This document shows positions 3,781 to 63,545 of a DNA stretch of 64,000 nt, piece after piece; within the stretch, counting starts at the first letter, position 1, and every line of letters begins with the position of its first letter. Under the pieces are notes generated by a model, which searched no databases, had not been told where the DNA came from, and worked only from the letters and a program-made list of their open reading frames with translations. The translations under genes were made by a program, and so were the position numbers. The DNA is taken from assembly GCA_050953885.1 (NCBI GenBank), contig JBMNNJ010000001.1:74132-138131 (forward strand), read 5' to 3'. This DNA comes from Patescibacteria group bacterium (GTDB lineage: Bacteria > Patescibacteriota > Microgenomatia > 0-14-0-10-38-17).

Positions 3781-4030
3781 TCGCCCCGCTCTGGCGGGGC
3801 TGAAATTAAGAAATTGAAAATGGGGAAAAATTTTGTTTCATTATTGCGGGCTGACCATAACTGTCATTCTGACGAAAGTCAGAACGAATAACTAAATTCA
3901 AAAGTTAAAATTTAAAAGTCAAAAGTACAAGTTAAAATTAAAAAGTAGAGCAAAAAGAACTTTTAACTTTTGACTTGCAATTTTGATCCGCCAGCTGGCG
4001 GATTGACTTTTGAATTTTGAATTATTTTTT
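3781..4030. repeat. intergenic repeat cluster: GC hairpin gccccgc-tctg-gcggggc (possible lysS terminator), gtcattctgacgaaagtcagaa hairpin, AT-rich k-mer element, ccgccagctggcgg palindrome
   Basis: Every module recurs elsewhere in the window; see findings. Confidence 0.7.
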
Positions 4031-6285: not shown

Positions 6286-8190
6286 CTAAGGTGTAACTGC
6301 TTTTTCCAGCCAATGGGCGGCTTTTTTTACAAGGGGTTCTTTTTCTTTTTCAGCCAAAGAAAGCATCTTAAAAGCAAGCTCTTCCCAGTTTTCAACTTTA
6401 TTTTTAAGCTTTACGGTGGTTACCAGAGCGGCTCTTTTTAGCCAAATGTTTTCGGAATTTAGCCAATCATAAAGAAGATTATTCTTTTTTGGGGAATTTT
6501 TTAAGACAGGAGCCAAAACTTCGCCGGCAAGAGTGTCAGTTACGGCCCAATTGTTAATATTTTTGGTAATTAATTTTTCTAACCAGGAAATATCTTTTAT
6601 TGCCAAATTTTTTTGGTATAAACCTAAAAGAAAAATCCCCGCCAGCTTGCTATCTAAATTTTTGGTAGAAATTAATTTTTCCGCGGTAGTAAAACAAACC
6701 GCGGTTGTTTTTAACTCTGGATATTCTTTCCAATATTTTTTAATGATTTTTCTGATTTCTTTTGTTCTCACTCCATAAGAAATAATTTTTTCTCCAATTA
6801 ACTTGTTGCGGCTTTGAGCGAATTTTTTATCTTGATTTTTCCGCAGTTCTTGATCAAGAAAGCGGGAAAAGTCTTTATCGGGTTTTTTCAAAAGTAATTT
6901 GCCGTAAAGTTTTTTATTGCCGGCCAGGCCGGTAATTTCTACGGGGATAATTTTGGGCGCTAATTTTTGAGAGGTGTCAATTTCTATTTCCCAAAAATTT
7001 TCCGTCAAGCCTTGCCATGCTTTCCCCCTTTTTCCTAAAATTAAGCAATTTAATTTTTTGCCGATGAGTTTTTTTCCTTCCTCTTGGCGAATTTCTTTGG
7101 TTAGAGCGCGAACTTTTCGGCTTCTTTCTTTTTTAATTTCCGGCGGGATTTCTTTCCAGAGACCCTTTTCAATCATTTTTTCGGCAGTAGTACCCGGTCG
7201 GGGAGAGAAACGAAAGGTGTGGGTAAAGGCAATTCTTGTCTCTTCAATATATTGTAGCGTTTGCCGAAAATCTTCTTCGGTTTCTCCCGGAAAGCCAACT
7301 AAAATGTCCGCCCGCAAATTAAATTCAGGGATTTCTTGTTTTATATATTGTAGTAGCTTTTTTGTTTTATTTAGATCGGTTTTTGGCCGATTCATTAATC
7401 GGTGAAGACGGGGCGAGCCGGTTTGGAGGGCAAGATGAAAATAAATAGAAAGGCGTTTTTCTTGTTGATGGTCTTTTAGATAAGTTTCTATAAGAGAGGG
7501 AGTAATTAAATTAGGGGTAAGTGAGCTTAGGGAAAGGCGAGGGATTTTCGTTTTTGTTAAGATTAAATTGATAAGATCGTTAAGGTTAAGATTGGGTTTT
7601 AAGTCTTGGCCAAAGGCAGAAAGATTAATACCGCATAAAACCACTTCCTGAACACCCCGACCTACCAGTTGGTTAATTTCTTTAATAATTTCTTTTGGCG
7701 GTTTGCTTTGAAAGTTGGGGCGCAAAAGAGGGACGATGCAGAAGGAACAATATTGTTGGCAACCGTCCTGAATTTTTACCCATTCTCGAGCCGGCGCTTC
7801 TTTGCCTTGAAAAGTTTTTTTCTTTTCCGGAAAATGTGGAAAGCAAGACGCGATTATTTGGGGAATTTTTTCTTTATCGGGATTACCAATAAAAAGATCG
7901 GCCGCCGGTAAGTTTATTCCTAATTTTTTTTGGACCTCAACGGCGCAACCGGTGGCCACTAAAAAACTTTGGGGGAATTCTTTCTTAAAATGGTTGATGG
8001 CCTGACGGGCTTCATGCTCGGCTTTTTTAGTAACGGCACAGGTGTTTAAAATGATTAAGTCGGGAGCGGTTTTATTTTTGGTGTCAAAAAGAGCAAAACC
8101 TTTATCAATTAACTCTTCTTGAATTTTTTTGCTTTCTGCTTGGTTAACCCGACAACCGAAGGTTTGGATGAGGAAAGAAGGCGGTTTCAT
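6286..8190 (-). CDS. MiaB/RimO-family radical-SAM methylthiotransferase (MTTase N-domain, CxxxCxxC, TRAM) with an extra C-terminal ~190-aa AlkD/AlkC-like HEAT-repeat domain
   Basis: Start chosen at MKPPSFLIQTFGCRVNQ. Radical-SAM motif CQQYCSFC, TRAM segment, then a tail that aligns with AlkD (NWAVTDTLAGEVL, ENIWLKRAAL, KKAAHWLEKA). Confidence 0.8.
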   Translation of the reverse strand: MKPPSFLIQTFGCRVNQAESKKIQEELIDKGFALFDTKNKTAPDLIILNTCAVTKKAEHEARQAINHFKKEFPQSFLVATGCAVEVQKKLGINLPAADLFIGNPDKEKIPQIIASCFPHFPEKKKTFQGKEAPAREWVKIQDGCQQYCSFCIVPLLRPNFQSKPPKEIIKEINQLVGRGVQEVVLCGINLSAFGQDLKPNLNLNDLINLILTKTKIPRLSLSSLTPNLITPSLIETYLKDHQQEKRLSIYFHLALQTGSPRLHRLMNRPKTDLNKTKKLLQYIKQEIPEFNLRADILVGFPGETEEDFRQTLQYIEETRIAFTHTFRFSPRPGTTAEKMIEKGLWKEIPPEIKKERSRKVRALTKEIRQEEGKKLIGKKLNCLILGKRGKAWQGLTENFWEIEIDTSQKLAPKIIPVEITGLAGNKKLYGKLLLKKPDKDFSRFLDQELRKNQDKKFAQSRNKLIGEKIISYGVRTKEIRKIIKKYWKEYPELKTTAVCFTTAEKLISTKNLDSKLAGIFLLGLYQKNLAIKDISWLEKLITKNINNWAVTDTLAGEVLAPVLKNSPKKNNLLYDWLNSENIWLKRAALVTTVKLKNKVENWEELAFKMLSLAEKEKEPLVKKAAHWLEKAVTP

Positions 8191-8194
8191 GGCT

Positions 8195-8250
8195 AAAAAA
8201 CACGAATTAACGCGAACGGGAAACGAATGAACGCGAATGAGCGAATAATT
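8195..8250. repeat. acgcgaat / acgaatg periodic repeat array
   Basis: cacgaattaacgcgaacgggaaacgaatgaacgcgaatgagcgaat; related arrays at 18470, 21325 and 41858. Confidence 0.6.
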
Positions 8251-11314: not shown

Positions 11315-11456
11315 AAAAAATTCAAAATTTAAAATTCAAAAGTTAAAATTACAACTCAAAATTAAAAAGTTTTTAGCGCGCACTGAAGTGCGCTACTACA
11401 AAAAATGGAATAGCGGACTTTAGTCCGCGCCGGTAATTTAACAATTTAAAAAATTC

Positions 11457-16119: not shown

Positions 16120-16190
16120 TTTAATCCCGAGGTTCCTGCCTAATCAACCCCCGGAGTTGATTAGATTTGCAACCTCGGGAGCAATACTTA
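16120..16190. repeat. cccgaggtt ... ctaatcaacccccggagttgattag ... aacctcggg hairpin element
   Basis: Related copies at 25423-25475 and 35800-35920. Confidence 0.65.
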
Positions 16191-18091: not shown

Positions 18092-18468
18092 AGCCGGGTG
18101 ATCTCTTGGCTTGTTTTGGCCAGCTGGGAGGCGGAAAAACCACCTTTCTTCAAGGAGTGGCCAAGGCTTTGGGGATAAAGGAGCGAATTTTAAGTCCGAC
18201 TTTTATTTTGATGCGCCAATACGAACTTCCCCACCAAAAAAGAGGGATAGAAAGATTTTATCATTGGGACTGGTATCGGATTAAGGGAGAAAAGGAAGCC
18301 TTGGCGGCGGGTTTTGGCGAAAATCTTCTTGATCCAAAAGCGGTAGTGGCGGTAGAATGGGCCGAAAACGCCCTTAAAGCCTTGCCGAGAAAAAGAATTG
18401 AGGTTCATTTTGAATATGGGGAGAAAGAAAAAGAGAGAAGAATAAGGATTATTAGAAAGAATTGTTAA
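18025..18468 (+). CDS. tsaE: tRNA t6A37 threonylcarbamoyl-adenosine biosynthesis ATPase TsaE
   Basis: GQLGGGKTTF P-loop, SPTF, HWDWYR motifs. Start at MEYLTK; overlaps the VanZ gene 3' end. Confidence 0.8.
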   Translation: MEYLTKSAQETKELGEKIGANLKPGDLLACFGQLGGGKTTFLQGVAKALGIKERILSPTFILMRQYELPHQKRGIERFYHWDWYRIKGEKEALAAGFGENLLDPKAVVAVEWAENALKALPRKRIEVHFEYGEKEKERRIRIIRKNC

Positions 18469-18469
18469 A

Positions 18470-18535
18470 AGACGCGAATTGACGCGAATGAGAAACGAAG
18501 GGACGCGAATGAGCGAATGGAATGGTTGGAGTAGC
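18470..18535. repeat. acgcgaat periodic repeat array directly after the tsaE stop
   Basis: gacgcgaattgacgcgaatgagaaacgaagggacgcgaatgagcgaatggaatgg. Confidence 0.6.
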
Positions 18536-20432: not shown

Positions 20433-21323
20433 ATGAGCGCTAAAAAAGGTTTAAAAGATTTTTTTATTCCCGGCGAAAGTAATAATTTTCGCGCCCGTCT
20501 GCTCCATCTGCCATTTTTGGCCGCCTTTCTCTTTTTTTTCCTTTTTTTTAAAACCGCCCTTTCTTTATACCTTTTAACTAATCCGGCGGTTTTAGGTTAT
20601 TCTTCGCAAATTACCAGCGCCCAGATTATAGAGTTAACAAATGCGGAACGGCAGAAGTATGGCCTGCCGGCGTTAACGCCTAGCCCTCTTTTGGAAAAAG
20701 CGGCGCGGCTTAAGGCGGAGGATATGTTTGCCGGCGACTATTGGTCGCATCGCTCGCCTACGGGAAAAACCCCTTGGGATTTTTTGAAAGAAGTTGGTTA
20801 TAATTATGTTTACGCTGGGGAAAATTTAGCCCGTGACTTTGCCGACGCGTCGGGAGTGGTGGCGGCGTGGATGGCCTCGCCGACTCATAAAGAAAATATT
20901 GTAAGTAAGAATTATCAGGAAATTGGGGTGGCGGTGGTTGATGGCGAGCTTGGGGGTTTGAAGACTACTCTGGTGGTGCAGATGTTTGGGACGCCGACAA
21001 GGCTGGTGGGAGAAAAGCCGCCGGCGCCGGTTCAGGAAATGCCGCCAGAGATAAAAGCAAAAACGGAGGAAAAAGGAGGAGTGCTTCCCTCGGCGGAAAA
21101 TAATAATCTTGGAGAAAAAGGAGGAACGATTGACCTTTTATCCTTAGAAAAACTGGCGGTGGTTTTTTGCTTGGGGTTACTCTTAGGAGTTTTAGTGGTA
21201 GATAAGGTGGTGGCGGAAAGAAGGCAAACGCCGCGATTAACAGCCGACAACAATGCCCATCTTATTTTCCTGCTTTTGGTGATTTTAGTAGTGGTTCTTT
21301 TGGAAGCGGGGACGATTGTTTAA
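20433..21323 (+). CDS. CAP/SCP/PR-1-like domain protein with N-terminal TM and C-terminal TM
   Basis: CAP motifs (LTNAERQKYGLPAL, YWSHRSP, GENLA, HKENI). Confidence 0.7.
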   Translation: MSAKKGLKDFFIPGESNNFRARLLHLPFLAAFLFFFLFFKTALSLYLLTNPAVLGYSSQITSAQIIELTNAERQKYGLPALTPSPLLEKAARLKAEDMFAGDYWSHRSPTGKTPWDFLKEVGYNYVYAGENLARDFADASGVVAAWMASPTHKENIVSKNYQEIGVAVVDGELGGLKTTLVVQMFGTPTRLVGEKPPAPVQEMPPEIKAKTEEKGGVLPSAENNNLGEKGGTIDLLSLEKLAVVFCLGLLLGVLVVDKVVAERRQTPRLTADNNAHLIFLLLVILVVVLLEAGTIV

Positions 21324-21324
21324 G

Positions 21325-21483
21325 ATACGCGAATTAACACGAATGGAAAACGAATGGACGCGAATTTGTAGGGGCGGGGTTTTTCCCCGCCCGAAACCAA
21401 AATGAATTCTATAGGGGCGATTCATGAATCGCCCGTTAGGGTAATTGGCGCCAATATGCGGGCGCATCGTGATGCGCCTCTAC
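21325..21483. repeat. acgcgaat array (21325-21365) followed by a 117-bp GTAGGGGCG-bounded structured element with 4 inner hairpins
   Basis: Same families as 18470 and 14771. Confidence 0.65.
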
Positions 21484-24049: not shown

Positions 24050-24300
24050 TTTTGTCCCGCCATAGCGGGACCCCGTTGCGGCGGGGCATTTTGATCCGCC
24101 AGCTGGCCTTGTACCAGCACGGTACAGAGCTGACGGACAGGGTTCATTCCTGTAGCTGTCATTCCTGAACTAAATTCAGGACAGGCTCTGACGAAAGTCA
24201 GGATCTAAATGATTCTGAATCAAGTTCAGAATGACGCTAATCGTGGCCGTCATTCTGATGAATCCGCCAGCTTGCGGATCAAATCTGAAAGCTACCACGC
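24050..24300. repeat. composite cluster of GC palindromes and hairpin modules in the divergent rtcB/24455 intergenic region
   Basis: gtcccgccatagcgggac, ccgccagctgg (interrupted), tctgacgaaagtcagga, gattctgaatcaagttcagaatgacg, gatccgcaagctggcggattc. Confidence 0.75.
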
Positions 24301-24959: not shown

Positions 24960-25180
24960 AAAAGTCAAAAGTTAAAAGTCAAAAGTTAAATATAAAAAGT
25001 TAGTAACTCGTAATAAGTAAATTCAAAATTCAAAAGTCAAAATTCAAAATTGCAAGTCAAAAGTTAAAAATTTTTTTATTCTACTTTTGAATTTTAACTT
25101 GTAATTTTGACTTTTAAATTTTAACTTTTGACTTTTAGTTATTCTCTGTCCGCCAGCTGGCGGACAGAATCATTCCCTCA
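24960..25180. repeat. about 170-bp AT-rich palindromic k-mer region (aaagtcaaaagttaaaa units) followed by the perfect 22-bp palindrome ctgtccgccagctggcggacag
   Basis: The 55-bp segment ttctacttttgaattttaacttgta.ttttgacttttaaatttt recurs at 30903 and, reverse-complemented, at 3905. Confidence 0.7.
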
Positions 25181-25422
25181 TTGCTACATTACTCTTGCTA
25201 TTATTATCTTGCTATTATTATCTTGCTATTATTGTCTTGTTATTATTACAGGTCTAATATCGTCATCATCGCTAGTGACTTATTTAGGGGGCGATCGCCC
25301 CTATTTTAATTCCCTTTTAAATTTAAAAATTTTTAGTTAATTATTTTTCTTCTATATTTTTAAAAATATAGCGGTAAAATATAGGTGAGTCAGAAAAAAG
25401 CCAGGCGAGAAAATTTTTTTAT

Positions 25423-25475
25423 CCCGAGGTTTGAAGCTAATCAACTCCGGGGGTTAAATGGCTTCAAACCTCGGG
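25423..25475. repeat. perfect 15-bp stem hairpin cccgaggtttgaagc ... gcttcaaacctcggg with ctaatcaactccggggg loop
   Basis: Family also at 16120 and 35800-35920. Confidence 0.7.
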
Positions 25476-35559: not shown

Positions 35560-35930
35560 AAATTATGACACGACTAACAAGCCGTCATTCTGAACTCGAT
35601 TCAGAATCGTTGTTTAATGCCTAAAGAAATGATTCTGATTTTCATCAGGACAACGCTTTCGTTAGAATGACGGCGGGAGGAGTCAGGATGACGACAGCCG
35701 TGCCGTCATTCCGGACTTGATCCGGAATCTGTGTTATTACCAAGGAAAGATTCTGACTTTCGTCAGAATGACAGAGAAGCGCCAGAATGACAGTAAGGGA
35801 ATAATTCTGCCTAATCAACTCCGGGGACTAATCCCGAGGTTTGAAGCTAAAAAAGTCCCGAGGTTTGAAGGCTCGCCAACTCCGGGGGTTAAATAGCTTC
35901 AAACCTCGGGAAAATAAGCAGAAATGATAA
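35560..35930. repeat. large composite repeat cluster (hairpin modules in both orientations plus tandem cccgaggtttgaag hairpins)
   Basis: gccgtcattctgaactcgattcagaatcg, gattccggatcaagtccggaatgacgg, cccgaggtttgaagc x2, gcttcaaacctcggg. Confidence 0.75.
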
Positions 35931-44995: not shown

Positions 44996-45893
44996 AAAAA
45001 TTTCCGTAGTAATTATTTCTCGAAATGAGGAGCCAAGAATAAGGCAGTGTCTTTTGGGCGCCAAAAAAGTGGGCGATGAGGTTATTTTGGTGCTTGGCTC
45101 CCGTGAGAAAGGCAATGTTTTGGAAGAAGCCCGAAAAGTGGGGGCGAAAATTTTTTGCCGCCCTTTTGATAATTATTCAAATCAAAAAAACTTTGCTATT
45201 AGCAAGGCGCAAGGTGATTGGATTTTTTCCTTAGACGCCGATGAGGAAATAAGCTCCTCGTTGGCAAAAGAACTTAAAGAAGCCACGGCGGATCTTTCTT
45301 ACAACGGCTATCTTGTGCCGCGGCAAAATATTATTTTTGGGAAAAAAATTCGCGGCGGCGGCTGGTGGCCGGATGAACAACTACGTTTCTTTGCTAAGGG
45401 TTTTGGCCAATTCTCTGGTTTAATCCATGAAAGGGTAGATGTTCAAGGAGGGGTAGGGAAGCTAAAATCGCCCCTCATTCACTACAACTATGATTCTTTA
45501 GAGGGCTTTATTGACCGGCTTAATCGTTACACTAGCTTTGAAGCAGAAAAGCTGGTCAAAGAAGGCTATTCTTTTTCCCAAAAGGATTGTTTAACACGAC
45601 CGATAGAGGAATTTTTAGGCCGTTTTTTTGCCCAAAAAGGCTGGCTTGACGGTTTCCATGGTTTGGCGCTTGCCCTGCTTCAGGCTTTTTATACGCTGGT
45701 AATTTATCTTAAAGTTTGGCAAAAAGAAGGTTTTGCGTCCATGAAGCCACTTTCTGACAAAAAAATCCAAAAAATTAGTCGTGAGAAGAAAAAGGAATTT
45801 TGTTATTGGCGTGATACTTATTTAATTGAAAAAGAAGAAAACTCTTTTAAACGCTTTTTTTTAAGATTAAGAAGAAAAATTTTTTATGGCTAA
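44961..45893 (+). CDS. GT2 glycosyltransferase (GGWWPD subfamily)
   Basis: ISVVIISRNEE ... LDADEE ... GGGWWPDEQLRFF. Confidence 0.8.
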   Translation: MKEVKPQKRKDKKISVVIISRNEEPRIRQCLLGAKKVGDEVILVLGSREKGNVLEEARKVGAKIFCRPFDNYSNQKNFAISKAQGDWIFSLDADEEISSSLAKELKEATADLSYNGYLVPRQNIIFGKKIRGGGWWPDEQLRFFAKGFGQFSGLIHERVDVQGGVGKLKSPLIHYNYDSLEGFIDRLNRYTSFEAEKLVKEGYSFSQKDCLTRPIEEFLGRFFAQKGWLDGFHGLALALLQAFYTLVIYLKVWQKEGFASMKPLSDKKIQKISREKKKEFCYWRDTYLIEKEENSFKRFFLRLRRKIFYG

Positions 45894-46887
45894 AGAAAAA
45901 GCAAAAATTGCCGTTATTATTTTAAATTGGAATCAAATTGATTTAACGCTGGCATGTTTGAAATCAGTTTTTCAGTCTAGAGCCGATGGACAAATTGAAA
46001 TTGAGGCGATCGTGATTGATAATGGTTCAACAGATAACTCAAAAAAGCGCCTGAAAGAAATTCAAGAGAGAAGAAATTTATCCCGCCAAGGGCGGGGTGA
46101 AATTAGGATTTCGCGAAGCAAATTTCCCAATTTCAAGGTTATTTTTAATAAAGAGAATCTTGGCTTTGCCGGCGGGAATAATGTGGGCATCCGTTATGCG
46201 CTAAAAAAAGGAGCCGATTTTGTTTTTATTTTAAATAACGACACCGAGATTAAAAATGATTGTCTTTTAAATTTATGGCAGACTTTTGAGGAGGAGGAAA
46301 AAATTGGCATTGTTTCTCCCAAAATTTATTATGCCCCGGGGTTTGAGTTTCATAAAAAAAGATACCAAAAAAAAGACTTAGGAAAGGTGATTTGGTATGC
46401 TGGTGGAAAAATTGACTGGGATAATGTTTTAGGCCGCCATTTGGGAGTAGATGAAGTTGACCAAGGTCAGTATGAAAAAAAGGAGGAAAACGAATTTGCC
46501 ACCGGCTGTGCTTTTATGGCCAAAAGAGCGGTGTTTGAGAATGTTGGCCTTTTTGACGAGCGATTTTTTCTTTATCTTGAAGATTTAGATTTTTCTTATC
46601 GAGTTGTCAAAGCTGGTTTTAAGCTTGTTTTTAATCCTCAAGCGATTGTTTGGCATAAAAATGCCGGCTCATCCTCAGCCGGTTCGGCTTTGCAAACCTA
46701 TTATTTTACCCGCAACCGCCTTCTTTTTGCCCAAAAACACGCCCCGTTAAAACTAAAACTTTTGGTTTATCGCCAGGCCTTAGAAAAAATGCGGCAGGGA
46801 AGCAAGATAGAAAAAGAGGCGGGACGGGATTTTTTTAAAAGGCGCTTTGAATTTCAAGAAATTGATAAAATAAAAGGAAATGATTAA
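45886..46887 (+). CDS. GT2 glycosyltransferase (rhamnosyltransferase-like)
   Basis: AVIILNWNQ ... IDNGSTD ... YLEDLDFSYR. Confidence 0.8.
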   Translation: MAKEKAKIAVIILNWNQIDLTLACLKSVFQSRADGQIEIEAIVIDNGSTDNSKKRLKEIQERRNLSRQGRGEIRISRSKFPNFKVIFNKENLGFAGGNNVGIRYALKKGADFVFILNNDTEIKNDCLLNLWQTFEEEEKIGIVSPKIYYAPGFEFHKKRYQKKDLGKVIWYAGGKIDWDNVLGRHLGVDEVDQGQYEKKEENEFATGCAFMAKRAVFENVGLFDERFFLYLEDLDFSYRVVKAGFKLVFNPQAIVWHKNAGSSSAGSALQTYYFTRNRLLFAQKHAPLKLKLLVYRQALEKMRQGSKIEKEAGRDFFKRRFEFQEIDKIKGND

Positions 46888-49441: not shown

Positions 49442-50353
49442 ATGAAAAGCGTTTCTATTATTATCCCCAACTGGAACGGCGAACGACAGTTAAAGAAAAA
49501 TTTGCCTTTATTATTTAATGTATTGGCTAAATTTAACGGGGAAAGCGAAATAATTATTATTGATGATCAGTCGGAAGATGGCTCCAGAGGATATCTTAAA
49601 AAGATGCGGAATCAGAAAAAACTTAGGCTTATTTTTAATAATAAGAATCTTGGTTTTGGCGGGAGCGTTAATAGGGGGGTAAGGGCGGCGCGATATGATA
49701 TTGTGTTTTTACTTAACACCGATGTGGAGGCGAAAACGGGTTGTTTTGAGCACATTTTGCCTCATTTTGAAAAAAAAGATGTTTTTGGAGTAGGAGCGAA
49801 TGCCGATTGGTTGGTGGGGCGGGGCCAATTTATTAACGGTTATTTTGATATTTCTTCGCCCATAAAAATAAAAAAAACTTGCCAAGAAGCGCAACCTTCA
49901 TTTTGGGTTTCCGGGGGCCATAGCGCTTTTAGGAAAAATCTTTGGGAAAAATTAGGCGGTCTTGACCCTCTTTACGCGCCCTTTTATTTTGAAGAAACCG
50001 ATCTTTGCTACCGCGCCTGGAAACGAGGCTGGAAAGTGCTTTTGGAGCCCAAGGCGCCGGTTTTACACAAGCACGAGGAAAGCGTGATTCGTCAAAATTT
50101 TTCGCCCCGGCATATTAGTTCTGTTGCCCAAAGAAACCAATTAATTTTTATCTGGAAAAACATCACCGATGAGAATATGTTTGCCGAACATAAAAAGGCC
50201 CTGATAAAGCGATTAGCCAAAAAGCCTTCTTATTTTAAGGTTTTTTTGACGGCGGCAAAAAAATGGCCGGAAATTAAAAGAAAACGAGCGATTGAAGAAA
50301 AAGAGATGGTTTTAACGGATAAAGAAATATTTGATAAATTTAAGATGAGATAG
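49442..50353 (+). CDS. GT2 glycosyltransferase
   Basis: SIIIPNWNG ... IIDDQSEDGS ... FYFEETDLCYR. Confidence 0.8.
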   Translation: MKSVSIIIPNWNGERQLKKNLPLLFNVLAKFNGESEIIIIDDQSEDGSRGYLKKMRNQKKLRLIFNNKNLGFGGSVNRGVRAARYDIVFLLNTDVEAKTGCFEHILPHFEKKDVFGVGANADWLVGRGQFINGYFDISSPIKIKKTCQEAQPSFWVSGGHSAFRKNLWEKLGGLDPLYAPFYFEETDLCYRAWKRGWKVLLEPKAPVLHKHEESVIRQNFSPRHISSVAQRNQLIFIWKNITDENMFAEHKKALIKRLAKKPSYFKVFLTAAKKWPEIKRKRAIEEKEMVLTDKEIFDKFKMR

Positions 50354-50399
50354 AAATAATAAACGGTAATTGTTTTTTATGATGAAAATTAAAGTCAAA

Positions 50400-50710
50400 A
50401 CAATCTAAATGCAAAGCGCGATCCGCCAGCTGGCGGACAGGATCTACCGTTCTTTAGACATTAATAACGATTCTGAATCAAGTTCAGAATGACGCTAATC
50501 GTAACCGTCATCCTGACGAAAGTCAGGATCTTTCCTTGTCATTAACACAGATTCCGGATCAAGTCCGGAATGACGGTTTCCGAGTTCGTCATTCTGACGA
50601 ATTCGCCAGCGGGCGGATTAAACTTTAAAAAGTTTTAACATTTACCATGTAGTTTTGCCATTTGACATTTGCGTTTTGAGATTTGAGTTTGTTTTTCGTG
50701 TCCATTCGTT
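50400..50710. repeat. composite intergenic repeat cluster (palindrome, three hairpin modules, AT-rich element)
   Basis: gatccgccagctggcggacaggatc; gattctgaatcaagttcagaatgacg; catcctgacgaaagtcaggat; gattccggatcaagtccggaatgacgg. Confidence 0.8.
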
Positions 50711-50728
50711 TCTTATTCGTTTTGGTTC

Positions 50729-53323
50729 ATGTCTTTTAGCAATGAAACAATGAAGCAGTCTAAGCCTCTTTTATCAATCATCATCGTTTCCTACAACACC
50801 CGGGAGCTTTTGGAAAAATGCCTTAACTCCGTGGTTAAATCATTAGCCGGCTCTAATCTTAAAAGCAACCAAGAAAAGATCCTGAACCAAGTTCAGGATG
50901 ACGCTAATCGCAACCGTCATCCTGACGATCCGCCAGCTGGCGGACAGGATCTGCCCTTGACCGAAATCATCGTTGTTGATAATAATTCCCGCGACGATTC
51001 GGTAGAAATGCTTCAAAATTTAAAATTGAAACTTGAAAATTCATTGAAAATTCAAAACTTAAAATTGAAAATTATTGTTAATAACGATAATCTTGGCTTT
51101 GCCAAGGCGGTTAATCAGGGAATTAAGAAAAGCCGAGGAGAATACTTGCTTCTTTTGAATTCCGACACGATTGTTCCTCCTCAAACTTTAGAAAAAATGA
51201 TTGAATTTGCCAGAAAGAAAAAAGACGCGGGCATTATTGCCCCCAAACTCTTAGATAAAAATGGAAAAACCTCCCAACCTTCCTGCTACCGTTTGCCGGC
51301 AATTAAGGGAGCCGTTAAAGAATTTTGGTTAGGGGAAAAAGGTGCTTTTGGAAAATATCTTCCCCGTGGCGGCAATCCGGTTAAGCCAGAAGCGGTGGTA
51401 GGGGCGGCGATGCTTATTCCCCGAGCCGTTTATGATGTGGTGGGCGAGTTTGACGAAAAATATTTTATGTATTATGAGGATTTAGACTATTGCCGCCGTG
51501 TTAGAGAAGCGGGATTTGCGGTTTATTATTTACCAACCGCTAAGATTATTCATTATCATGGTCAAAGCGGCCAAAAAGAGCCTCAAAAAGTTAATCGCCA
51601 TCTTATTGAAAGCAGTAAAAAATATCATGGCCGCCTAAAACATTTTTTCTTAAATGCCATCATTCGCCTTGGTCAGGCTAAAAAGTTTTTGCCGCTTATC
51701 CTTTTGGTTTTGGCAATGTTGGTCTGGTCGGTTCATCATTTATATTTTTTAAAACCTGCTTTTCCAAAAACCCATGATGGCCATTTTCACCTTATTCGTT
51801 TAGCTGAATTTGACCGATCTTTCAAAGCAGGTATTATTCCCCCTCGCTGGGCACCGGGTTTGGCCAATGGTTTGGGAGCGCCAGTTTTTAATTATTTTTA
51901 TCCCTTGGTTTATTACCTGGGAGAAGGATTTCATCTTTTGGGCTTTTCTTTTGCTTCCTCTCTTAAATTGGTGGCCGCTCTTTCTTGCTTTGCGGCTTTT
52001 TTCTTTAGCTTTCTTTTCTTTAAACTTTTTTTTGCTACCCTATCAAGTTTCTTGGGGGCAAGTTTAGTGGTTTATGCTCCCTACAGCTTTCTTAATCTTT
52101 TTGTGCGCGGAGAATTTCCAGAAATTTTGGCCCTTTGCCTTTTACCGGCAATTTTCTGGGCCACCACCAAGGCGGTTTTAAATAAAGAAAAAAACCGCCA
52201 TTTTCTTTTAGCCGCTCTTCCTTGGGCGTTGATAATTTTATCCCACAATATTATTGCCCTGCTAGCTACTGTCTGGTTGATAATTTTTTTATTTTTAGTT
52301 TTAATCAGGGATAGAAAAGCCGCTAAAAAAACAATTTTTATTTTTTTGTTATCGCTTGCTTTAAGCGCCTTTTTTTGGATACCGGCATTGGGAGAAATGA
52401 AATATGTTCATCTGGGTTATGATGAAGTTTTTTCCTGGTGGGACCATTTTCCCACTCTTAGGCAGTTAATTTATTCTCCTTGGGGGCATGGTTATTCTTA
52501 TCCGGGACAAAGCGATGAAATGTCTTTTCAAATTGGCTTACCCCATCTTTTTCTTTCCCTATCGGCAGGGATACTTCTTTTAATCCAGCTTTTCAAAGAC
52601 AAGAAAAATTTTTGGAAAAGCTGGAAAAATCTAGCCATTTTTTTCTTTGCCTTTTCTTCTTTTACCTTTATCTTTTTAATGAATCACCGCTCTTCTTTTT
52701 TCTGGCAAACGCTTCCTTTTCTTTCCCGGGTCCAGTTTCCGTGGCGGTTTTTGGGATTTTTAAATTTTTCTCTTTGTTTCTTAATTACTTTTTTCTTAGA
52801 ACAGCTTTTATCTTTTTCAAAAGAAAAAATCGCCTTGCCAGTTATTTTTCTTATTTTTATCGGAACATTTTTTGCTTATTTTGGTTATATCCGGCCGGAA
52901 AGTTATCTTACTCAAGAAGTAATCTTTAATTCAAATGAAGTGCGGGAAACCACTACCAATGCCAATGAAATTTTACCGATTTGGGCGCCAAAAGATAGTT
53001 ATCAAAATATTAATTTAACCAATACAATAGAGTGTAAAGAGTTTTCCTGCGAAACATCAACTGCCTTTAACCAAGAAAAAGAAGTTATTTTCAGAAAATT
53101 TTATTTTCCTTCTTGGCAGGGAAAAATTGATGACTTTCCTTTAAGGCTTTATCCTCAAGAAAAAACAGGCTTGATAGCCGCGCTGGTTCCGGCCGGAAAT
53201 CATCAGGTTAGGATAGAGTGGGGGAAAACTAATCTTGAAAGGGCGGCCGATTATATCAGTCTTGCTTCGCTTGTCTTTTTGTTTTCTTTTATTACGATCT
53301 TTAAAAAGAAAAAATTAACTTGA
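50729..53323 (+). CDS. fusion protein: N-terminal GT2 domain plus C-terminal large GT-C-like polytopic membrane domain (YfhO-like family)
   Basis: LSIIIVSYNTRE ... VVDNNSRDDS ... YYEDLDYCRR, then FPKTHDGHFHLIRL ... IPPRWAP ... GAPVFNYFYPLVYY and C-terminal FYFPSWQG. Confidence 0.8.
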   Translation: MSFSNETMKQSKPLLSIIIVSYNTRELLEKCLNSVVKSLAGSNLKSNQEKILNQVQDDANRNRHPDDPPAGGQDLPLTEIIVVDNNSRDDSVEMLQNLKLKLENSLKIQNLKLKIIVNNDNLGFAKAVNQGIKKSRGEYLLLLNSDTIVPPQTLEKMIEFARKKKDAGIIAPKLLDKNGKTSQPSCYRLPAIKGAVKEFWLGEKGAFGKYLPRGGNPVKPEAVVGAAMLIPRAVYDVVGEFDEKYFMYYEDLDYCRRVREAGFAVYYLPTAKIIHYHGQSGQKEPQKVNRHLIESSKKYHGRLKHFFLNAIIRLGQAKKFLPLILLVLAMLVWSVHHLYFLKPAFPKTHDGHFHLIRLAEFDRSFKAGIIPPRWAPGLANGLGAPVFNYFYPLVYYLGEGFHLLGFSFASSLKLVAALSCFAAFFFSFLFFKLFFATLSSFLGASLVVYAPYSFLNLFVRGEFPEILALCLLPAIFWATTKAVLNKEKNRHFLLAALPWALIILSHNIIALLATVWLIIFLFLVLIRDRKAAKKTIFIFLLSLALSAFFWIPALGEMKYVHLGYDEVFSWWDHFPTLRQLIYSPWGHGYSYPGQSDEMSFQIGLPHLFLSLSAGILLLIQLFKDKKNFWKSWKNLAIFFFAFSSFTFIFLMNHRSSFFWQTLPFLSRVQFPWRFLGFLNFSLCFLITFFLEQLLSFSKEKIALPVIFLIFIGTFFAYFGYIRPESYLTQEVIFNSNEVRETTTNANEILPIWAPKDSYQNINLTNTIECKEFSCETSTAFNQEKEVIFRKFYFPSWQGKIDDFPLRLYPQEKTGLIAALVPAGNHQVRIEWGKTNLERAADYISLASLVFLFSFITIFKKKKLT
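50878..50951 (+). repeat. 74-75 bp hairpin repeat element inserted in-frame inside the GT2 domain of the 50729 gene (encodes KILNQVQDDANRNRHPDDPPAGGQD)
   Basis: Near-identical to intergenic copies at 50468-50545 and 53400-53545: gatcctgaaccaagttcaggatgacgctaatcgcaaccgtcatcctgacgatccgccagctggcggacaggatc. Confidence 0.8.
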
Positions 53324-53369
53324 GTTATATCCAAATCTTTATGGCAAAACGTAATTTTGCCTCTTGGCC

Positions 53370-53620
53370 CCGTATAATTTTGGTACGGGACTTGACGAGT
53401 TCGTCATCCTGACGAAAGTCAGGATCTGCCTTTGGCATTAACACAGATTCCGGATCAAGTCCGGAATGACGGTTTCCGAGTTTGTCGTTCTGACTCCTCT
53501 TACCGTCATTCTGACAATCCGCCAGCTGGCGGACAGGATCTGCCTCTTTCTGACGATAAGGCAGATTATAAGACAGATTCTGAATTAAATTCAGCATGAC
53601 GACCAGGGGATTATTTATGT
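53370..53620. repeat. composite repeat cluster (same modules as 50400-50640)
   Basis: The 90-aa minus-strand ORF here is simply a translation of the repeats. Confidence 0.8.
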
Positions 53621-60371: not shown

Positions 60372-62117
60372 ATGAAAAAGGAAACATTTTTTTTAAAAAC
60401 CAAAAAAATTCTTCCTGTCATCTTAATTTTGCTTTTAGGAGCTTATTGTTCGAAAGGCCTTTTTACTTATCATTTTTTTAGCACTCATGACGGCGACCAT
60501 CATCTTGCTCGTAGTTATGATGCCGTAAAGACGCTTTCGGAAGGACATTTTCCGCTTCGTTGGGCGGGTAGTTTAAATTATTTCTGCGGGATTCCTATTT
60601 TTAATTTTTTCTACCCCCTTTTTTACTATTTAATTTTTCTGGTTAATCTTTTAGTTGGCGATATTATTTTCTCGCTAAAAATCGTTTATGTTTTAAGCTT
60701 TACGCTTGCTCCTTTGTTTTTTTATCTTTGGCTAAAGAGGGAGACTAAGAACCCCATCGCCTCACTTTTAGGGGCGATACTTTATCTTTTTGTTCCCTAT
60801 CGTTTCTTGCTTGTTTTTGTTCGCTCCAGTCCCGAATTTATGGCTTATACGATTTTACCGGTTTTTTTATATCTTTTAAGTATTTTCTTTGAAAAAATTA
60901 AGAAAAAAGAAAGAAACGCTGCTTACCTTTTTGGCTTTTTAACTTCTCTTTCGGGAGCGGCTTTAATTACCGCTCATCAATTAATAGCCTTTTTGCTCTT
61001 TCCGATTATTTTTTTATGGTTTGTAATAAAAACTTGGCAAACAAAAGTTTACAAGCAAAAAGTTAATTTTTTATGGCTTATTTTTTTAACGGCGGTATCT
61101 ATTGTTGGCTTGAGCGCTTTTTTTTGGGGACCGGTTTTTTTAGAAAAAGGGGAAGTTAAAATCGGAGAGTTGGAGGTTATTAGCTACTGGCAACATTTTC
61201 CTTCTTTAAAACAATTAATTCATTCCCCCTGGGGTTACTTTTATTCCGCTCCCGGTGTTGAAAATGATGGCATGTCTTTTTCCTTAGGTTATGCACAATG
61301 GGCGGTTTTGGGGTTGTCGGGAATTTGGTTGGTAATTAAGGCGGTAAAAACAGGACTTCTTAAAACAATGAGAGAAAATTTTGGAGTGCTATTTTTCTTT
61401 TTAATCTCTGTTTTCGCTCTTTTTCTGATGCTTGAACAATCTAGGTTTGTTTGGGAGCTATTTGTTTTATTGCAAGAAGTTCAGTTTCCTTGGCGTTTTT
61501 TGGGAGTAACCTCTTTTACTATTGCTGCCTTAGGGGGGTTTTGGTTAACACAGATTGGCAACAAAAAAATTGTTTATGCTTTGGCAATATTAATTTCTTT
61601 TTTGGCAATCTATGGTAATCGCAACCATCTTCTCCCCCAACCCTTAGCAGAACCAGAAAGATACGAAGATTTTGAGAGGCTACATCCCCATCGGTATAGC
61701 ACGACTACTCTTGGAGATGATATTCTTAATAGAGAAGCCGAAAAGGCATGTTATTTTGGTGACCCTTTTCTTTTAGTTAATAAAGAAAAAATTGAAAATA
61801 AACTTAATCGGGGCAATACTTTTGGAGAGGTTTACTTTAAATGGCCCCAGCAAGAAGCAAGTGCAACAATTAATCTTAATTTAGAATACTTTCCCGGGAT
61901 CTATAAAATTAAGATCAATGGAGAAGAAATAAAAAAAATCAGCAATTTTTCAGGAAGAATAGCTTTAGAAGAGATTTCTTTAAAAGAAGGGGAAAATGTT
62001 ATTAGCTGGCAAATCGTCCAGTCGCCAATTGAGCGGTTTTTTAATGGTGTTAGCTTGGGTTTTTTAGTCCTTTGGTTGATTTTAATACCAATCTATGAAA
62101 TTAAAAGGAAAGCTTAA
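60372..62117 (+). CDS. large polytopic membrane protein, GT-C-like (YfhO-like family; paralog of 40164 and 50729 C-terminal half)
   Basis: FFSTHDGDHHLARS ... FPLRWAG ... GIPIFNFFYPLFYY. Confidence 0.5.
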   Translation: MKKETFFLKTKKILPVILILLLGAYCSKGLFTYHFFSTHDGDHHLARSYDAVKTLSEGHFPLRWAGSLNYFCGIPIFNFFYPLFYYLIFLVNLLVGDIIFSLKIVYVLSFTLAPLFFYLWLKRETKNPIASLLGAILYLFVPYRFLLVFVRSSPEFMAYTILPVFLYLLSIFFEKIKKKERNAAYLFGFLTSLSGAALITAHQLIAFLLFPIIFLWFVIKTWQTKVYKQKVNFLWLIFLTAVSIVGLSAFFWGPVFLEKGEVKIGELEVISYWQHFPSLKQLIHSPWGYFYSAPGVENDGMSFSLGYAQWAVLGLSGIWLVIKAVKTGLLKTMRENFGVLFFFLISVFALFLMLEQSRFVWELFVLLQEVQFPWRFLGVTSFTIAALGGFWLTQIGNKKIVYALAILISFLAIYGNRNHLLPQPLAEPERYEDFERLHPHRYSTTTLGDDILNREAEKACYFGDPFLLVNKEKIENKLNRGNTFGEVYFKWPQQEASATINLNLEYFPGIYKIKINGEEIKKISNFSGRIALEEISLKEGENVISWQIVQSPIERFFNGVSLGFLVLWLILIPIYEIKRKA

Positions 62118-63459
62118 TTGGTCTTGCCTAACTTTGTTGGCAGTTTTGGTTATTTTTCTTTTTCTTCGTTTTTACCAACTGCCCCAACGAACCATTTTTA
62201 ATTGGGATCAGGAAAGGGATGCTTTTGAAGTGCAAAAAATTCTTTCTGGCGACCCAAGCCTTATCGGCCCGCGTGTTTTGGGGCCGCAAGGGTTTTTCTT
62301 AGGCCCTTATTTTTACTATCTTTTAGCGCCATTTTATTTCCTCACCGGCGGCCACCCCCAAGCGATTGTTTATTTCCTAATCGTCTTGAACCTTGTTTTT
62401 TTCTTGGCCGCCTATTTGATTGTTAAAAAAATCTGGGGAGAAAAAACCGCCCTAATCTTTCTTTTTCTTTGGACGATTAATCCGGCGGCAATAGAAACGG
62501 TGGCCTGGAATCCGACCCTAATCCCCTTAATGATTATTTTAATCTGGTTTACCCTTTCTCAAAAAAGTTATTTTTGGTTGGGCTTAAGCCTTTCTTTGGC
62601 GATTAATTTCCATTTTCAGGCAGTTTTTTTGGCGCCTTTTATTTTACTTTTTTTGTTTTGGCAAAGAGAGCTTTCGGGAAAAAATTTAGGCAAAGCGGCG
62701 TTGGGATTTTTTTTACCCTTTATTCCCTTGCTTCTTTTTGACTTACGACATAACTTCTTAAATTTTAAGCTTTTGGGGCAGTTTATAAAAGAGCGAGGCG
62801 AGGGGGGCAATTTTTTGGCTTGGCGGCCGGTGCTGGCTAATTTTTTAACTGGCTTTTGGGGGGAGGAAAAAATTTGGCTCCCCTTGACTTTAGCGCTTGT
62901 TCTTTTAACCCTGTGGCTTGTTAAAAAGCAAAAAAATTATTTTTCCAAAAACTTTCTTAAAAGTCTTCTTTTTCTTTACCCCATTGTTTTGTTGGGTTTT
63001 AGCATTTATGGCCAAAGACCGTCGGAATATTATTTTAATTTTCTTTTACCCTTTTTTATTTTAGTTTTGGCCTTATTTATCAGCTCTTTTGGCAAATTAA
63101 AACGGCTGTTTTTTTTGCTTCTTTTTATTCTTCTCTGGTTGCCAAAAACGATGGAAAAAACCGTTCCTGTTTCGGTTAGTTTGTTGGCGAAAGACAAAGC
63201 AATTGCTTATTTGGTAGAAAAAAACGGGAAAATACCGGCGGAAGTTCGCTATCAAACTCCTTTAGGCGAGGAAGCAGGTTTTTCCTATTTGCTAAATTAC
63301 TACGGCTTGGAAAAAGCGACCGAAGGAGAAAGAAAAATCTGGCTGGTAAGCATTCCGCCGGCAGAAGAAAGCCAAGCTTTTGGTGGAGTGGGAGTAAAAT
63401 TAATAGGAGAGGAAAAAAATTTGCTTATTAACAACGATTCTGAATCAAGTTCAGAATGA
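62095..63459 (+). CDS. polytopic membrane glycosyltransferase-like protein (paralog of 35962); stop codon supplied by a repeat element
   Basis: FNWDQERDAFEV ... IGPRVLGPQGFFLGPYFYY. Confidence 0.5.
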   Translation: MKLKGKLNWSCLTLLAVLVIFLFLRFYQLPQRTIFNWDQERDAFEVQKILSGDPSLIGPRVLGPQGFFLGPYFYYLLAPFYFLTGGHPQAIVYFLIVLNLVFFLAAYLIVKKIWGEKTALIFLFLWTINPAAIETVAWNPTLIPLMIILIWFTLSQKSYFWLGLSLSLAINFHFQAVFLAPFILLFLFWQRELSGKNLGKAALGFFLPFIPLLLFDLRHNFLNFKLLGQFIKERGEGGNFLAWRPVLANFLTGFWGEEKIWLPLTLALVLLTLWLVKKQKNYFSKNFLKSLLFLYPIVLLGFSIYGQRPSEYYFNFLLPFFILVLALFISSFGKLKRLFFLLLFILLWLPKTMEKTVPVSVSLLAKDKAIAYLVEKNGKIPAEVRYQTPLGEEAGFSYLLNYYGLEKATEGERKIWLVSIPPAEESQAFGGVGVKLIGEEKNLLINNDSESSSE

Positions 63460-63545
63460 CTGTAACCGCAGTCGTCATTCTAACGATCCGCTCGCTGGCG
63501 GACAGAATCTGTTTTGATTCTGAATCAAATTCAGAATAACGCTCT
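63425..63545. repeat. composite hairpin-module cluster
   Basis: gattctgaatcaagttcagaatgac; gtcgtcattctaacgatccgctcgctggcggacagaatc; gattctgaatcaaattcagaataacg. Confidence 0.75.

What the first reader, a model, noticed from the sequence alone, without database searches (positions are those of the whole stretch)
50878..50951. A hairpin miniature repeat is inserted in-frame inside a glycosyltransferase catalytic domain
A 74-75 bp element sits between the conserved GT2 blocks VVKSL and EIIVVDNNS of the 50729 ORF. It is almost identical to the intergenic copies at 50468-50545 and 53400-53545 and is made of the hairpin gatcctgaa-ccaag-ttcaggat plus the ccgccagctggcgg palindrome. Its length is a multiple of three, the frame is kept, and it adds about 25 hydrophilic residues (KILNQVQDDANRNRHPDDPPAGGQD) in what should be a surface loop. 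This is the behaviour known for Rickettsia palindromic elements (RPEs) and, to a lesser extent, Neisseria Correia elements: selfish palindromic repeats that survive inside genes by encoding tolerated loops. It implies an active or recently active mobilisation mechanism and ongoing protein-sequence innovation by repeat insertion.
Basis: seen in the sequence. Interest (0 to 1): 0.78.

Follow-up and report, generated by a model that had tools for sequence, protein, structure and literature searches.

The report
In-frame REP hairpin array in glycosyltransferase
A pair of small palindromic "REP" repeats, normally found between genes, sits in frame inside a surface loop of a sugar-transferase gene of a Patescibacteria (CPR) bacterium; this is a real example, in a new lineage, of a phenomenon already known from Rickettsia and other bacteria.

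Summary
Window 50876-50953 lies inside the 864-aa GT2 ORF (50729..53323). It is a head-to-head dimer of CGTC-tagged REP hairpins, and its second unit carries a nested CCGCCAGCTGGCGG palindrome. The same units form about 10 intergenic arrays in the window (0.46 expected by chance). The insert encodes K50-L75. An AlphaFold model (pLDDT 90) places it in the only low-confidence stretch, the loop between helix alpha1 and strand beta2 of the GT-A fold. Distant orthologs have 5-7 residues there.

Eight alleles from independent assemblies carry an array at this site. Seven share identical outer ends but differ in internal units (84-207 nt); the eighth is a single unit. The window allele equals a 195-nt allele minus 114 nt bracketed by a CGTCATCNTGACGA direct repeat.

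This points to one old capture followed by unit loss and gain and by cassette recombination, not fresh transposition. DNA and protein scans found no other gene family carrying this repeat in frame. No transposase lies in the window.

Intragenic CGTC REPs, including RPE-4 and RPE-6, were described in 2013. The verdict is a new member of a known kind, of moderate interest.

The parts
50729..53323 (+). Host gene: GT2 (GT-A fold) glycosyltransferase fused to a PTPS_related membrane domain, 864 aa. NCBI annotates the start at 50750 (857 aa).
   Evidence: ORF. Pfam PF00535 covers aa 16-171 and PF10131 covers aa 387-734. The exact protein occurs on 4 contigs from NCBI, JGI and Logan.
50876..50903 (-). 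REP unit A, read on the minus strand: CGTC-ATCCTGAA-CTTGG-TTCAGGAT-CTT. It encodes K50-D58.
   Evidence: The canonical CGTC-unit scan reports 50879-50903. The module matches intergenic copies. Stem covariation across copies is C-G 14, T-A 36, none mismatched.
50904..50914 (+). 11-nt head-to-head spacer, ctaatcgcaac.
   Evidence: Sequence. An 11-nt spacer occurs in 48 of 59 head-to-head dimers.
50915..50952 (+). REP unit C: CGTC-ATCCTG-acga-[nested palindrome]-a-CAGGAT-CT. It encodes R63-L75.
50930..50943 (.). Nested perfect palindrome CCGCCAGCTGGCGG, which encodes PPAGG.
   Evidence: The same palindrome stands alone in intergenic DNA at 1606, 3987, 25149, 37575 and 37669.
50849..50962 (+). Whole variable loop 1, codons G41-T78, between helix alpha1 and strand beta2. 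It is modelled at low confidence.
   Evidence: AlphaFold pLDDT for 10-residue blocks 41-80 is 60/50/54/74, against at least 94 for the neighbouring blocks. The alignment shows 5-7 residues here in distant orthologs.
50419..50620 (+). Upstream intergenic REP array (units C, A, B, A2 and others). It is collinear with the in-ORF array of ortholog L001.
   Evidence: The L001 in-ORF array matches 50473-50593 at 95% over 121 nt. Canonical units found.
53400..53603 (+). Downstream intergenic REP array (units B, A2, C, A).
63433..63543 (+). REP array overlapping the 3' end of the PMT_2 gene 62095..63459. It supplies the last ~8 codons and the TGA stop.
24160..24290 (+). Intergenic REP array that includes a full A-C-like dimer.
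35583..35800 (-). Intergenic REP array in the opposite orientation.

Best explanation
The element is the shortened remnant of an array of CGTC-tagged REP hairpins that was captured once, in frame, in the DNA encoding the alpha1-beta2 surface loop of a GT-A-fold glycosyltransferase. The capture happened in an ancestor of a group of Patescibacteria (Microgenomates/Shapirobacteria-like) genomes.

Shown:
- The units are the same family as the genome's intergenic REP arrays.
- The insert is read through in one frame and adds about 26 hydrophilic residues to a loop modelled as disordered and lying outside the core fold.
- Related alleles keep the same outer ends (unit A at the 5' end, ...CAGGATCT at the 3' end) but differ in internal units.

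Inferred:
- Array size changes by recombination or slippage between the CGTCATCCTGAC direct repeats. The window allele A-C arose from an A-B-A2-P-C-like array by a 114-nt deletion.
- The whole 5' cassette, carrying loop 1 and loop 2, is exchanged between alleles and between GT2 paralogs by homologous recombination at conserved GT2 motifs.
- The peptide is a tolerated passenger with no required protein function.
- The original capture came either from an unknown REP-mobilising activity or from copying of a nearby intergenic array.
For: Unit anatomy: CGTC tag, 8-bp stem beginning AT, 4-5-nt loop. There are 10 canonical units in the window against 0.46 in shuffles. This matches the definition in PMC3733652.

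Arrangement: head-to-head dimers with an 11-nt spacer are the norm (48 of 59).

Link to intergenic copies: the in-ORF array of ortholog L001 is 95% identical over 121 nt to the window's intergenic array.

Position in the protein: in the protein alignment, distant orthologs have 5-7 residues where the window has about 40 and P0002 about 77. The AlphaFold model has pLDDT 90.3 overall, with low confidence only at residues 41-77, between alpha1 (25-40) and beta2 (78-84). Foldseek confirms a GT-A fold.

Allele series: modular alleles are A-C, A-h-B, A-h-P-B, A-B-A2-P-C, A-h-B-A2-h-B, A-h-B-A2-h-C and a near-identical variant of the last, spanning 84-207 nt, plus a one-unit allele. The 114-nt indel is bracketed by CGTCATC[C/A]TGACGA.

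Assembly: the same protein was recovered from independent assemblies.

Literature: intragenic REP dimers encoding 20-30 aa are the typical known case.
Against: No mobilising enzyme was found. None of the ~52 window ORFs has a transposase domain, and only 64 kb of a contig of about 600 kb was visible.

The polarity of the 114-nt indel (deletion here or insertion in L001) is inferred from parsimony across alleles, not from a rooted tree.

The retained REP sequence is more conserved than the flanking coding DNA (254/260 = 97.7% against 559/604 = 92.5%). A purely neutral passenger does not predict this, so there may be constraint on the hairpin or homogenisation with other copies.

Translation of the insert is not demonstrated.
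Confidence: 0.8

Rival explanations
1. A currently or recently active miniature transposon (RPE, Correia or MITE-like) is inserting into genes of this lineage and creating new protein loops.
For: The repeat family is abundant and nearly identical between copies. Loop alleles differ among orthologs that are at least 90% identical elsewhere. A second array overlaps the 3' end of another gene.
Against: All array-bearing alleles share the same outer boundaries, although their flanks are only 79-94% identical. There is no target-site duplication, and the terminal inverted repeat is only 8 bp. Of 66 head-to-head dimers in metagenome contigs, the only intragenic ones are this same cassette. The all-against-library peptide search found only this cassette and spurious short ORFs. 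No transposase lies in the window.
Confidence: 0.08
2. The in-ORF hairpins are kept by selection for a nucleic-acid-level function, such as an mRNA structure that modulates translation or stability near the 5' end, a protein-binding site, or an antisense terminator. The encoded peptide would then be incidental.
For: The retained REP sequence is more conserved than the flanking coding DNA (97.7% against 92.5%). The stems covary perfectly across copies. The fold is very stable. The minus strand shows a terminator-like hairpin followed by a T-run.
Against: Close orthologs do without any REP at this site (P0001, P0138, P0003). Unit content varies freely between alleles. Conservation and covariation can equally come from subfamily structure or from gene conversion with other copies. 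There is no T-run after the hairpin on the sense strand.
Confidence: 0.1
3. The direction is reversed: the segment is ancestral coding sequence, and the intergenic copies are decayed fragments of GT2 genes. Alternatively, the junction is an assembly artefact.
For: Intergenic arrays flank this very gene on both sides. Repeats are known to cause chimeric assemblies.
Against: Copies occur at about 10 unrelated loci, on both strands, with no GT2 flanking sequence. They also occur in 58 metagenome contigs. Distant orthologs lack the segment. The identical protein is found in NCBI, JGI and Logan assemblies, and the same junctions appear in seven other contigs.
Confidence: 0.02

Closest known systems
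CGTC-tagged REPs (families CGTC-1 and CGTC-2) of Di Nocera, De Gregorio & Rocco 2013, BMC Genomics 14:522 (PMC3733652)
   Same: They share the CGTC tag, an 8-bp stem beginning AT, 4- or 5-nt loops, a short unpaired tail and a predominance of head-to-head dimers. They are mostly intergenic and lie downstream of ORFs. Occasional intragenic dimers encode 20-30 aa and clusters encode more. No dedicated transposase is known.
   Different: The host is a Patescibacteria/CPR genome, whereas that paper covered 5 phyla, mostly alpha-Proteobacteria. The tail is CTG, CGT or CTT rather than CCA. One unit type carries a second palindrome (CCGCCAGCTGGCGG or CCCGCCAAAGGCGGGG) nested in its loop. Only one gene cassette was found to carry the repeat.
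Rickettsia palindromic elements (Ogata et al. 2000, Science 290:347; reviewed in PMC10969869)
   Same: Both are palindromic repeats inserted in frame, encoding hydrophilic segments in positions compatible with the protein fold. RPE-4 and RPE-6 belong to the same CGTC class according to PMC3733652.
   Different: RPEs interrupt dozens of unrelated genes, whereas here there is one ancestral site. RPE-1 is about 100-150 bp and has a conserved peptide. The lineage is different. Sequence homology to RPEs was not tested.
E. coli BIMEs (mosaic arrays of REPs in alternating orientation; from my own knowledge)
   Same: Both are arrays of alternating-orientation hairpins with conserved spacers, and both vary in unit number between strains.
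   Different: BIME REPs are GTAG-type and extragenic. Their gyrase and IHF binding and RAYT association were not examined here.
Neisseria Correia elements and classical MITEs
   Same: Both are small non-autonomous repeats with inverted ends that can overlap ORFs.
   Different: Correia elements have ~26-bp terminal inverted repeats, a TA target duplication and an IHF site. Here the inverted end is only 8 bp and there is no duplication.

Membership tests
CGTC-tagged REP superfamily (PMC3733652) | An unpaired CGTC (or TGTC/CCTC) tetranucleotide at one end of the hairpin | tested here: met
   There are 10 canonical units with an exact CGTC tag in the window, against 0.46 in shuffles. TGTC and AGTC variants occur at 3862 and 63436.
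CGTC-tagged REP superfamily (PMC3733652) | A stem of 8-9 bp whose first two positions are A-T, with a loop of 4-5 nt | tested here: met
   Examples are ATCCTGAC-GAAA-GTCAGGAT, ATTCTGAA-CTTGA-TTCAGAAT and ATTCCGGA-CTTGA-TCCGGAAT. The in-ORF unit C is a variant with a nested 14-nt palindrome.
CGTC-tagged REP superfamily (PMC3733652) | A short unpaired tail with consensus CCA | tested here: not met
   The tails are CTG, CGT, CTT or CAT. A tail exists but the consensus differs.
CGTC-tagged REP superfamily (PMC3733652) | Predominantly head-to-head dimers | tested here: met
   The arrangement ...GACG-N11-CGTC... occurs in the ORF and at 50470-50529. A metagenome scan found 59 distinct dimers, 48 of them with an 11-nt spacer.
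CGTC-tagged REP superfamily (PMC3733652) | Multi-copy, mainly intergenic, mostly downstream of ORFs | tested here: met
   The window has about 10 intergenic arrays in 64 kb, one intragenic array and one overlapping a stop codon.
RAYT-mobilised REPs (REPtron model) | An IS200/IS605-like tyrosine transposase (RAYT) gene flanked by the REPs | tested here: inconclusive
   None of about 52 window ORFs has a transposase Pfam hit. The rest of the contig of about 600 kb was not available. CGTC REPs are reported to lack a dedicated transposase.
Rickettsia palindromic elements | In-frame insertions in many unrelated protein-coding genes | tested here: not met
   Only one homologous GT2 5' cassette carries the repeat in frame. 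This held among 66 dimers, in the word-indexed peptide search and in the full library search.
Rickettsia palindromic elements | The insert lies in a position compatible with the fold (a surface loop) | tested here: met
   AlphaFold places the insert between alpha1 and beta2, at low pLDDT, with the rest of the domain above 90.
Rickettsia palindromic elements | Sequence homology to families RPE-1 to RPE-10 | not tested
   No RPE reference sequences were at hand, and Rfam has no matching family. The only link is through the CGTC classification in PMC3733652.
Correia / classical MITE | Long terminal inverted repeats and a target-site duplication | tested here: not met
   Only AGATCCTG...CAGGATCT (8 bp) pairs at the ends. 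The flanks gaaaag|...|gccctt show no duplication.

The most novel reading that the evidence does not exclude
The REP arrays and the neighbouring 7-nt arrays may not be mere passengers. They could make the first ~450 nt of glycosyltransferase genes in these CPR glycan clusters a recombination hot-spot. One hairpin-rich 5' cassette would then be shuffled among alleles and among different GT2 paralogs, generating chimeric enzymes and hypervariable loops. That would amount to a repeat-driven diversification mechanism for cell-surface glycan synthesis in Patescibacteria.
Probability: 0.12. Interest if true: 0.7.

Novelty: new member of a known kind. Interest (0 to 1): 0.4.

Why it matters
It extends CGTC-type REPs, and their capture inside genes, to the Candidate Phyla Radiation. 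I found no description of REPs there in the searchable literature.

It also provides a clean natural series of eight alleles. The series shows how an in-frame hairpin array grows and shrinks in a disordered loop without breaking a GT-A fold.

On the practical side, it explains a set of spurious 'hypothetical proteins' in databases, and it warns annotators that such loops and their lengths are not enzyme features.

The phenomenon itself (in-frame REPs and RPEs) has been known since 2000 and 2013, so it does not open a new question.

Tried and rejected
- Rfam, gathering threshold on the whole window and E-value mode on 50350-51150: no family beyond one tRNA.
- Peptide search with the long P0002 insert: only 14 short, domain-free ORFs. 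The tool did not even return P0002, so its sensitivity was doubtful. I repeated the search with the exhaustive library, with the same conclusion.
- Exact-pattern scan of species-representative genomes for the C unit: 7 scattered hits. This did not identify the source genome and was too few for a census.
- MAFFT alignment of the window insert against the L001 insert gave an ambiguous gap placement. It was resolved by locating the direct repeats explicitly.
- Misassembly was rejected because identical proteins occur in independent assemblies.
- An intrinsic terminator inside the gene was rejected because no T-run follows the hairpin on the sense strand.
- Translational bypass or frameshifting was considered unnecessary, because all eight alleles are open in one frame.
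- A MITE with a target-site duplication was rejected on reading the flanks.
Full report
**1. The observation**

The ORF 50729..53323 (+) encodes 864 aa. Pfam finds Glycos_transf_2 at residues 16-171 and a PTPS_related membrane domain at 387-734.

The DNA at 50876-50953 is aagATCCTGAACCAAGTTCAGGATGACGctaatcgcaacCGTCATCCTGACGATCCGCCAGCTGGCGGACAGGATCTg. Its similarity to other copies is as follows:
- The 3' 26-mer recurs at 50420 (exact), 53516 (1 mismatch) and 63485 (3 mismatches), with none expected by chance.
- The 5' hairpin recurs at 24211 and 50469.
- BLAST gives 93.6% over 47 nt to 50473-50519, 100% over 27 nt to 50419-50445, and 95% over 41 nt to 53502-53542.
- Full-length relatives lie at 63440-63511 (83%) and 24215-24278 (86%).

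The in-ORF copy is therefore a mosaic of modules found in intergenic arrays, not a copy of one particular array. As RNA it folds to -38.2 kcal/mol, z = -5.4.

**2. What the units are**

Each hairpin has the same anatomy: CGTC, an 8-bp stem beginning AT, a 4-nt (GAAA) or 5-nt (CTTGA) loop, the complementary stem, and a 3-nt tail. A scan for this pattern finds 10 canonical units in the window, against a mean of 0.46 in shuffles.

This is the definition of the CGTC-tagged REP superfamily of Di Nocera et al. 2013 (PMC3733652). Those authors also report that:
- such REPs occur mostly as head-to-head dimers;
- they lie mainly downstream of ORFs;
- they lack a known dedicated transposase;
- they are sometimes intragenic, with dimers encoding 20-30 aa and clusters encoding 43-82 aa;
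- R. conorii RPE-4 and RPE-6 belong to this class.

The in-ORF element is such a head-to-head dimer:
- unit A on the minus strand (50876-50903);
- an 11-nt spacer (50904-50914);
- unit C (50915-52), whose loop holds the nested palindrome CCGCCAGCTGGCGG (50930-50943).

In 59 distinct head-to-head dimers recovered from the metagenome contigs and the other loci held at that point, the spacer is 11 nt in 48. The variable stem position of unit A covaries perfectly: C-G in 14 copies, T-A in 36, none mismatched. Rfam has no family for these elements.

**3. Position in the protein**

An alignment of 18 orthologs shows two hypervariable segments flanked by invariant GT2 blocks.
- Loop 1 lies between ...S(V/I)xxSL and EIIVVDN.
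- Loop 2 lies between the alpha2 helix and the (K/N)xIxNxxNLGF strand.

Distant orthologs (P0016-P0020) have 5-7 residues in loop 1. The window has about 40 and P0002 about 77.

An AlphaFold model of residues 1-333, built with 63 sequences, has mean pLDDT 90.3 and pTM 0.86. The secondary structure elements are beta1 15-21, alpha1 25-40, beta2 78-84, alpha2 91-104 and beta3 111-117. The only low-confidence stretch is 41-77. Foldseek matches GT-A enzymes such as GalNAc-T2 and WrtF. The REP-encoded residues K50-L75 thus sit in a loop outside the core fold.

**4. Related alleles**

The exact window protein is present in NCBI (MGI6775798.1, a Patescibacteria MAG with a 597,657-nt contig), JGI and Logan assemblies, which rules out misassembly.

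The syntenic ortholog L001 (P0002) carries a 195-nt array at the same place. The window allele equals it minus 114 nt (38 codons) bracketed by CGTCATC[C/A]TGACGA. The L001 in-ORF array is 95% identical over 121 nt to the window's upstream intergenic array 50473-50593.

Seven arrays were measured between identical anchors, and their modular compositions are as follows:

| Source | Units | Length (nt) |
|---|---|---|
| window | A-C | 84 |
| L058 | A-h-B | 90 |
| L059 | A-h-P-B | 126 |
| L001 | A-B-A2-P-C | 195 |
| L055 | A-h-B-A2-h-B | 195 |
| L042 | A-h-B-A2-h-C | 204 |
| L072 | A-h-B-A2-(h)-C | 207 |

L071 (P0137) has a single unit with a nested palindrome.

All seven measured arrays begin with unit A and end in ...CAGGATCT, so the outer junctions are constant and only the interior changes. 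Across five alleles the retained 5' 52 nt of the array is 97.7% identical to the window. The adjacent 5' coding DNA is 92.5% identical and the 3' coding DNA 79-91%.

**5. Cassette behaviour**

Within the 90%-identity cluster of the window protein, orthologs that are nearly identical over the C-terminal ~750 residues carry at least four unrelated loop-1 and loop-2 versions.

L002 (P0001) is 94.3% identical to the window from 51072 to 53415 but non-homologous across 50838-51071. Its loop 2 is instead 92.9% identical to loop 2 of a paralogous GT2 gene in the window, 45886..46887. That paralog itself carries an in-frame GC hairpin at 46081-46097.

Conversely, L042, L055, L058 and L059 share the REP-bearing 5' ~450 nt but continue from about 51170 into different GT2 paralogs that lack the membrane domain. 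The 5' end of these genes is therefore a mosaic exchanged by recombination at conserved GT2 motifs.

Other lineages fill the same loops with other repeat types (each read from the sequence only):
- P0012 has three gcgggctaaagcccgctac units, which are GTAG-tagged on the reverse strand.
- P0005 has CAAAAYT heptamer arrays.
- The window's own loop 2 is a 7-nt-period array of 8.9 copies.

**6. How general is in-frame capture?**

Of 66 head-to-head dimers in 58 metagenome contigs, five lie inside long open frames. Four of these are the same GT2 5' cassette. The fifth is the C-terminus of the ortholog of window ORF 62095..63459.

A word-indexed peptide search found only short domain-free ORFs. The exhaustive search of 1.84 billion representatives found four hits: two fragments of the same cassette and two spurious ORFs.

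No window ORF has a transposase domain. There is no target-site duplication, and the terminal inverted repeat is only 8 bp.

**7. Interpretation**

The best reading has three steps:
- One ancestral in-frame capture of a CGTC-REP array in a permissive loop.
- Later unit loss and gain through the internal direct repeats.
- Spread by cassette recombination.

The window allele is a shortened A-C remnant. The inference of active mobilisation and ongoing insertion into genes does not.

A nucleic-acid-level function for the hairpins cannot be excluded, because they are more conserved than the flanks. REP-free orthologs show that no such function is required.

**8. Novelty**

Intragenic CGTC REPs are described (PMC3733652), and in-frame RPEs are well known (Ogata et al. 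2000, Science 290:347; reviewed in PMC10969869). I found no paper on REPs in CPR/Patescibacteria in the library. This is a new member of a known kind, with a useful allele series and a possible link to cassette shuffling among glycosyltransferases. Interest is moderate.

Noticed in passing
window 51015-51077 (loop 2 of the same gene); intergenic relatives at 3894-3950, 11318-11374, 25019-25075 and 50654-50691: Loop 2 of the GT2 gene (LQNLKLKLENSLKIQNLKLKI) is encoded by an imperfect 7-nt-period array (AAAATTG, 8.9 copies). It resembles an A-rich intergenic repeat family. Orthologs differ here by about 6-7 residues, close to three heptamers (21 nt), and P0005 builds both loops from CAAAAYT heptamers. 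A heptamer array inside a glycosyltransferase gene could in principle cause frameshift phase variation.
   Followed up: partly
window 45886..46887, hairpin at 46081-46097; L002 343-440: A paralogous GT2 gene carries an in-frame GC hairpin (tcccgccaagggcgggg, encoding LSRQGRG) in its loop 2. This 98-nt stretch is 92.9% identical to loop 2 of ortholog P0001 of the 50729 gene, which indicates gene conversion between paralogs.
   Followed up: partly
window 63433-63460, at the end of ORF 62095..63459; L052 388-546: A REP unit supplies the last ~8 codons (NDSESSSE) and the TGA stop of a PMT_2-family gene. In a metagenome ortholog the frame instead runs on through the REP array for 60 or more further codons.
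   Followed up: partly
L042, L055, L058 and L059 compared with window 50300-51175: The REP-bearing 5' ~450 nt of the gene is shared at 82-89% identity with contigs whose GT2 genes then diverge, from about 51170, into different single-domain paralogs. In L055 the shared region also includes the upstream intergenic array and the end of the upstream gene. This is locus-level gene replacement of the kind seen in O-antigen clusters.
   Followed up: partly
L004-L010 (species-representative genome contigs): The unit [C/T]GTCAT[C/T]CTG-(T)CCGCCAGCTGGCGGACAG[G/A]ATCT occurs almost unchanged in MAGs labelled Bacteroidota, Balneolaceae, Cyanobacteria, Paceibacterota and Kazan. The cause could be horizontal spread, a shared recognising enzyme, or mis-binned contigs (two of the MAGs come from the same sample).
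   Followed up: no
window 53325..53597 (-) and 53432..53599 (+): REP arrays are stop-free in several frames and produce spurious ORFs of 55-90 aa. Database 'hypothetical proteins' such as P0125 and P0170 are translations of such arrays.
   Followed up: partly
window 8189-8246, 18461-18518, 21316-21373 and, in inverted orientation, 50692-50728: Another repeat family, (ACGCGAAT / CATTCG)n, lies immediately upstream of start codons, including the start of the GT2 gene and of its orthologs in L001 and L003. It may be a 5'-UTR or promoter element.
   Followed up: no
window 16124-16166, 25421-25463 and 35831-35898: A further intergenic repeat family (ATCCCGAGGTTTGAAG...CTCCGGGGGTTAAAT) appears, with inverted copies next to the REP arrays.
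   Followed up: no
L069 211-340 (P0012 ortholog): Loop 1 of a 47%-identical ortholog contains three in-frame units gcgggctaaagcccgctac (RGLKPAT), which read as GTAG-tagged hairpins on the reverse strand. One is a perfect hairpin and two are degenerate. The same loop may have been colonised by the other REP superfamily.
   Followed up: partly
window 50729 versus 50750: JGI calls the gene from ATG 50729 (864 aa), while NCBI calls it from ATG 50750 (857 aa). Orthologs begin at the MKQS... methionine, so 50750 is the likelier start.
   Followed up: partly
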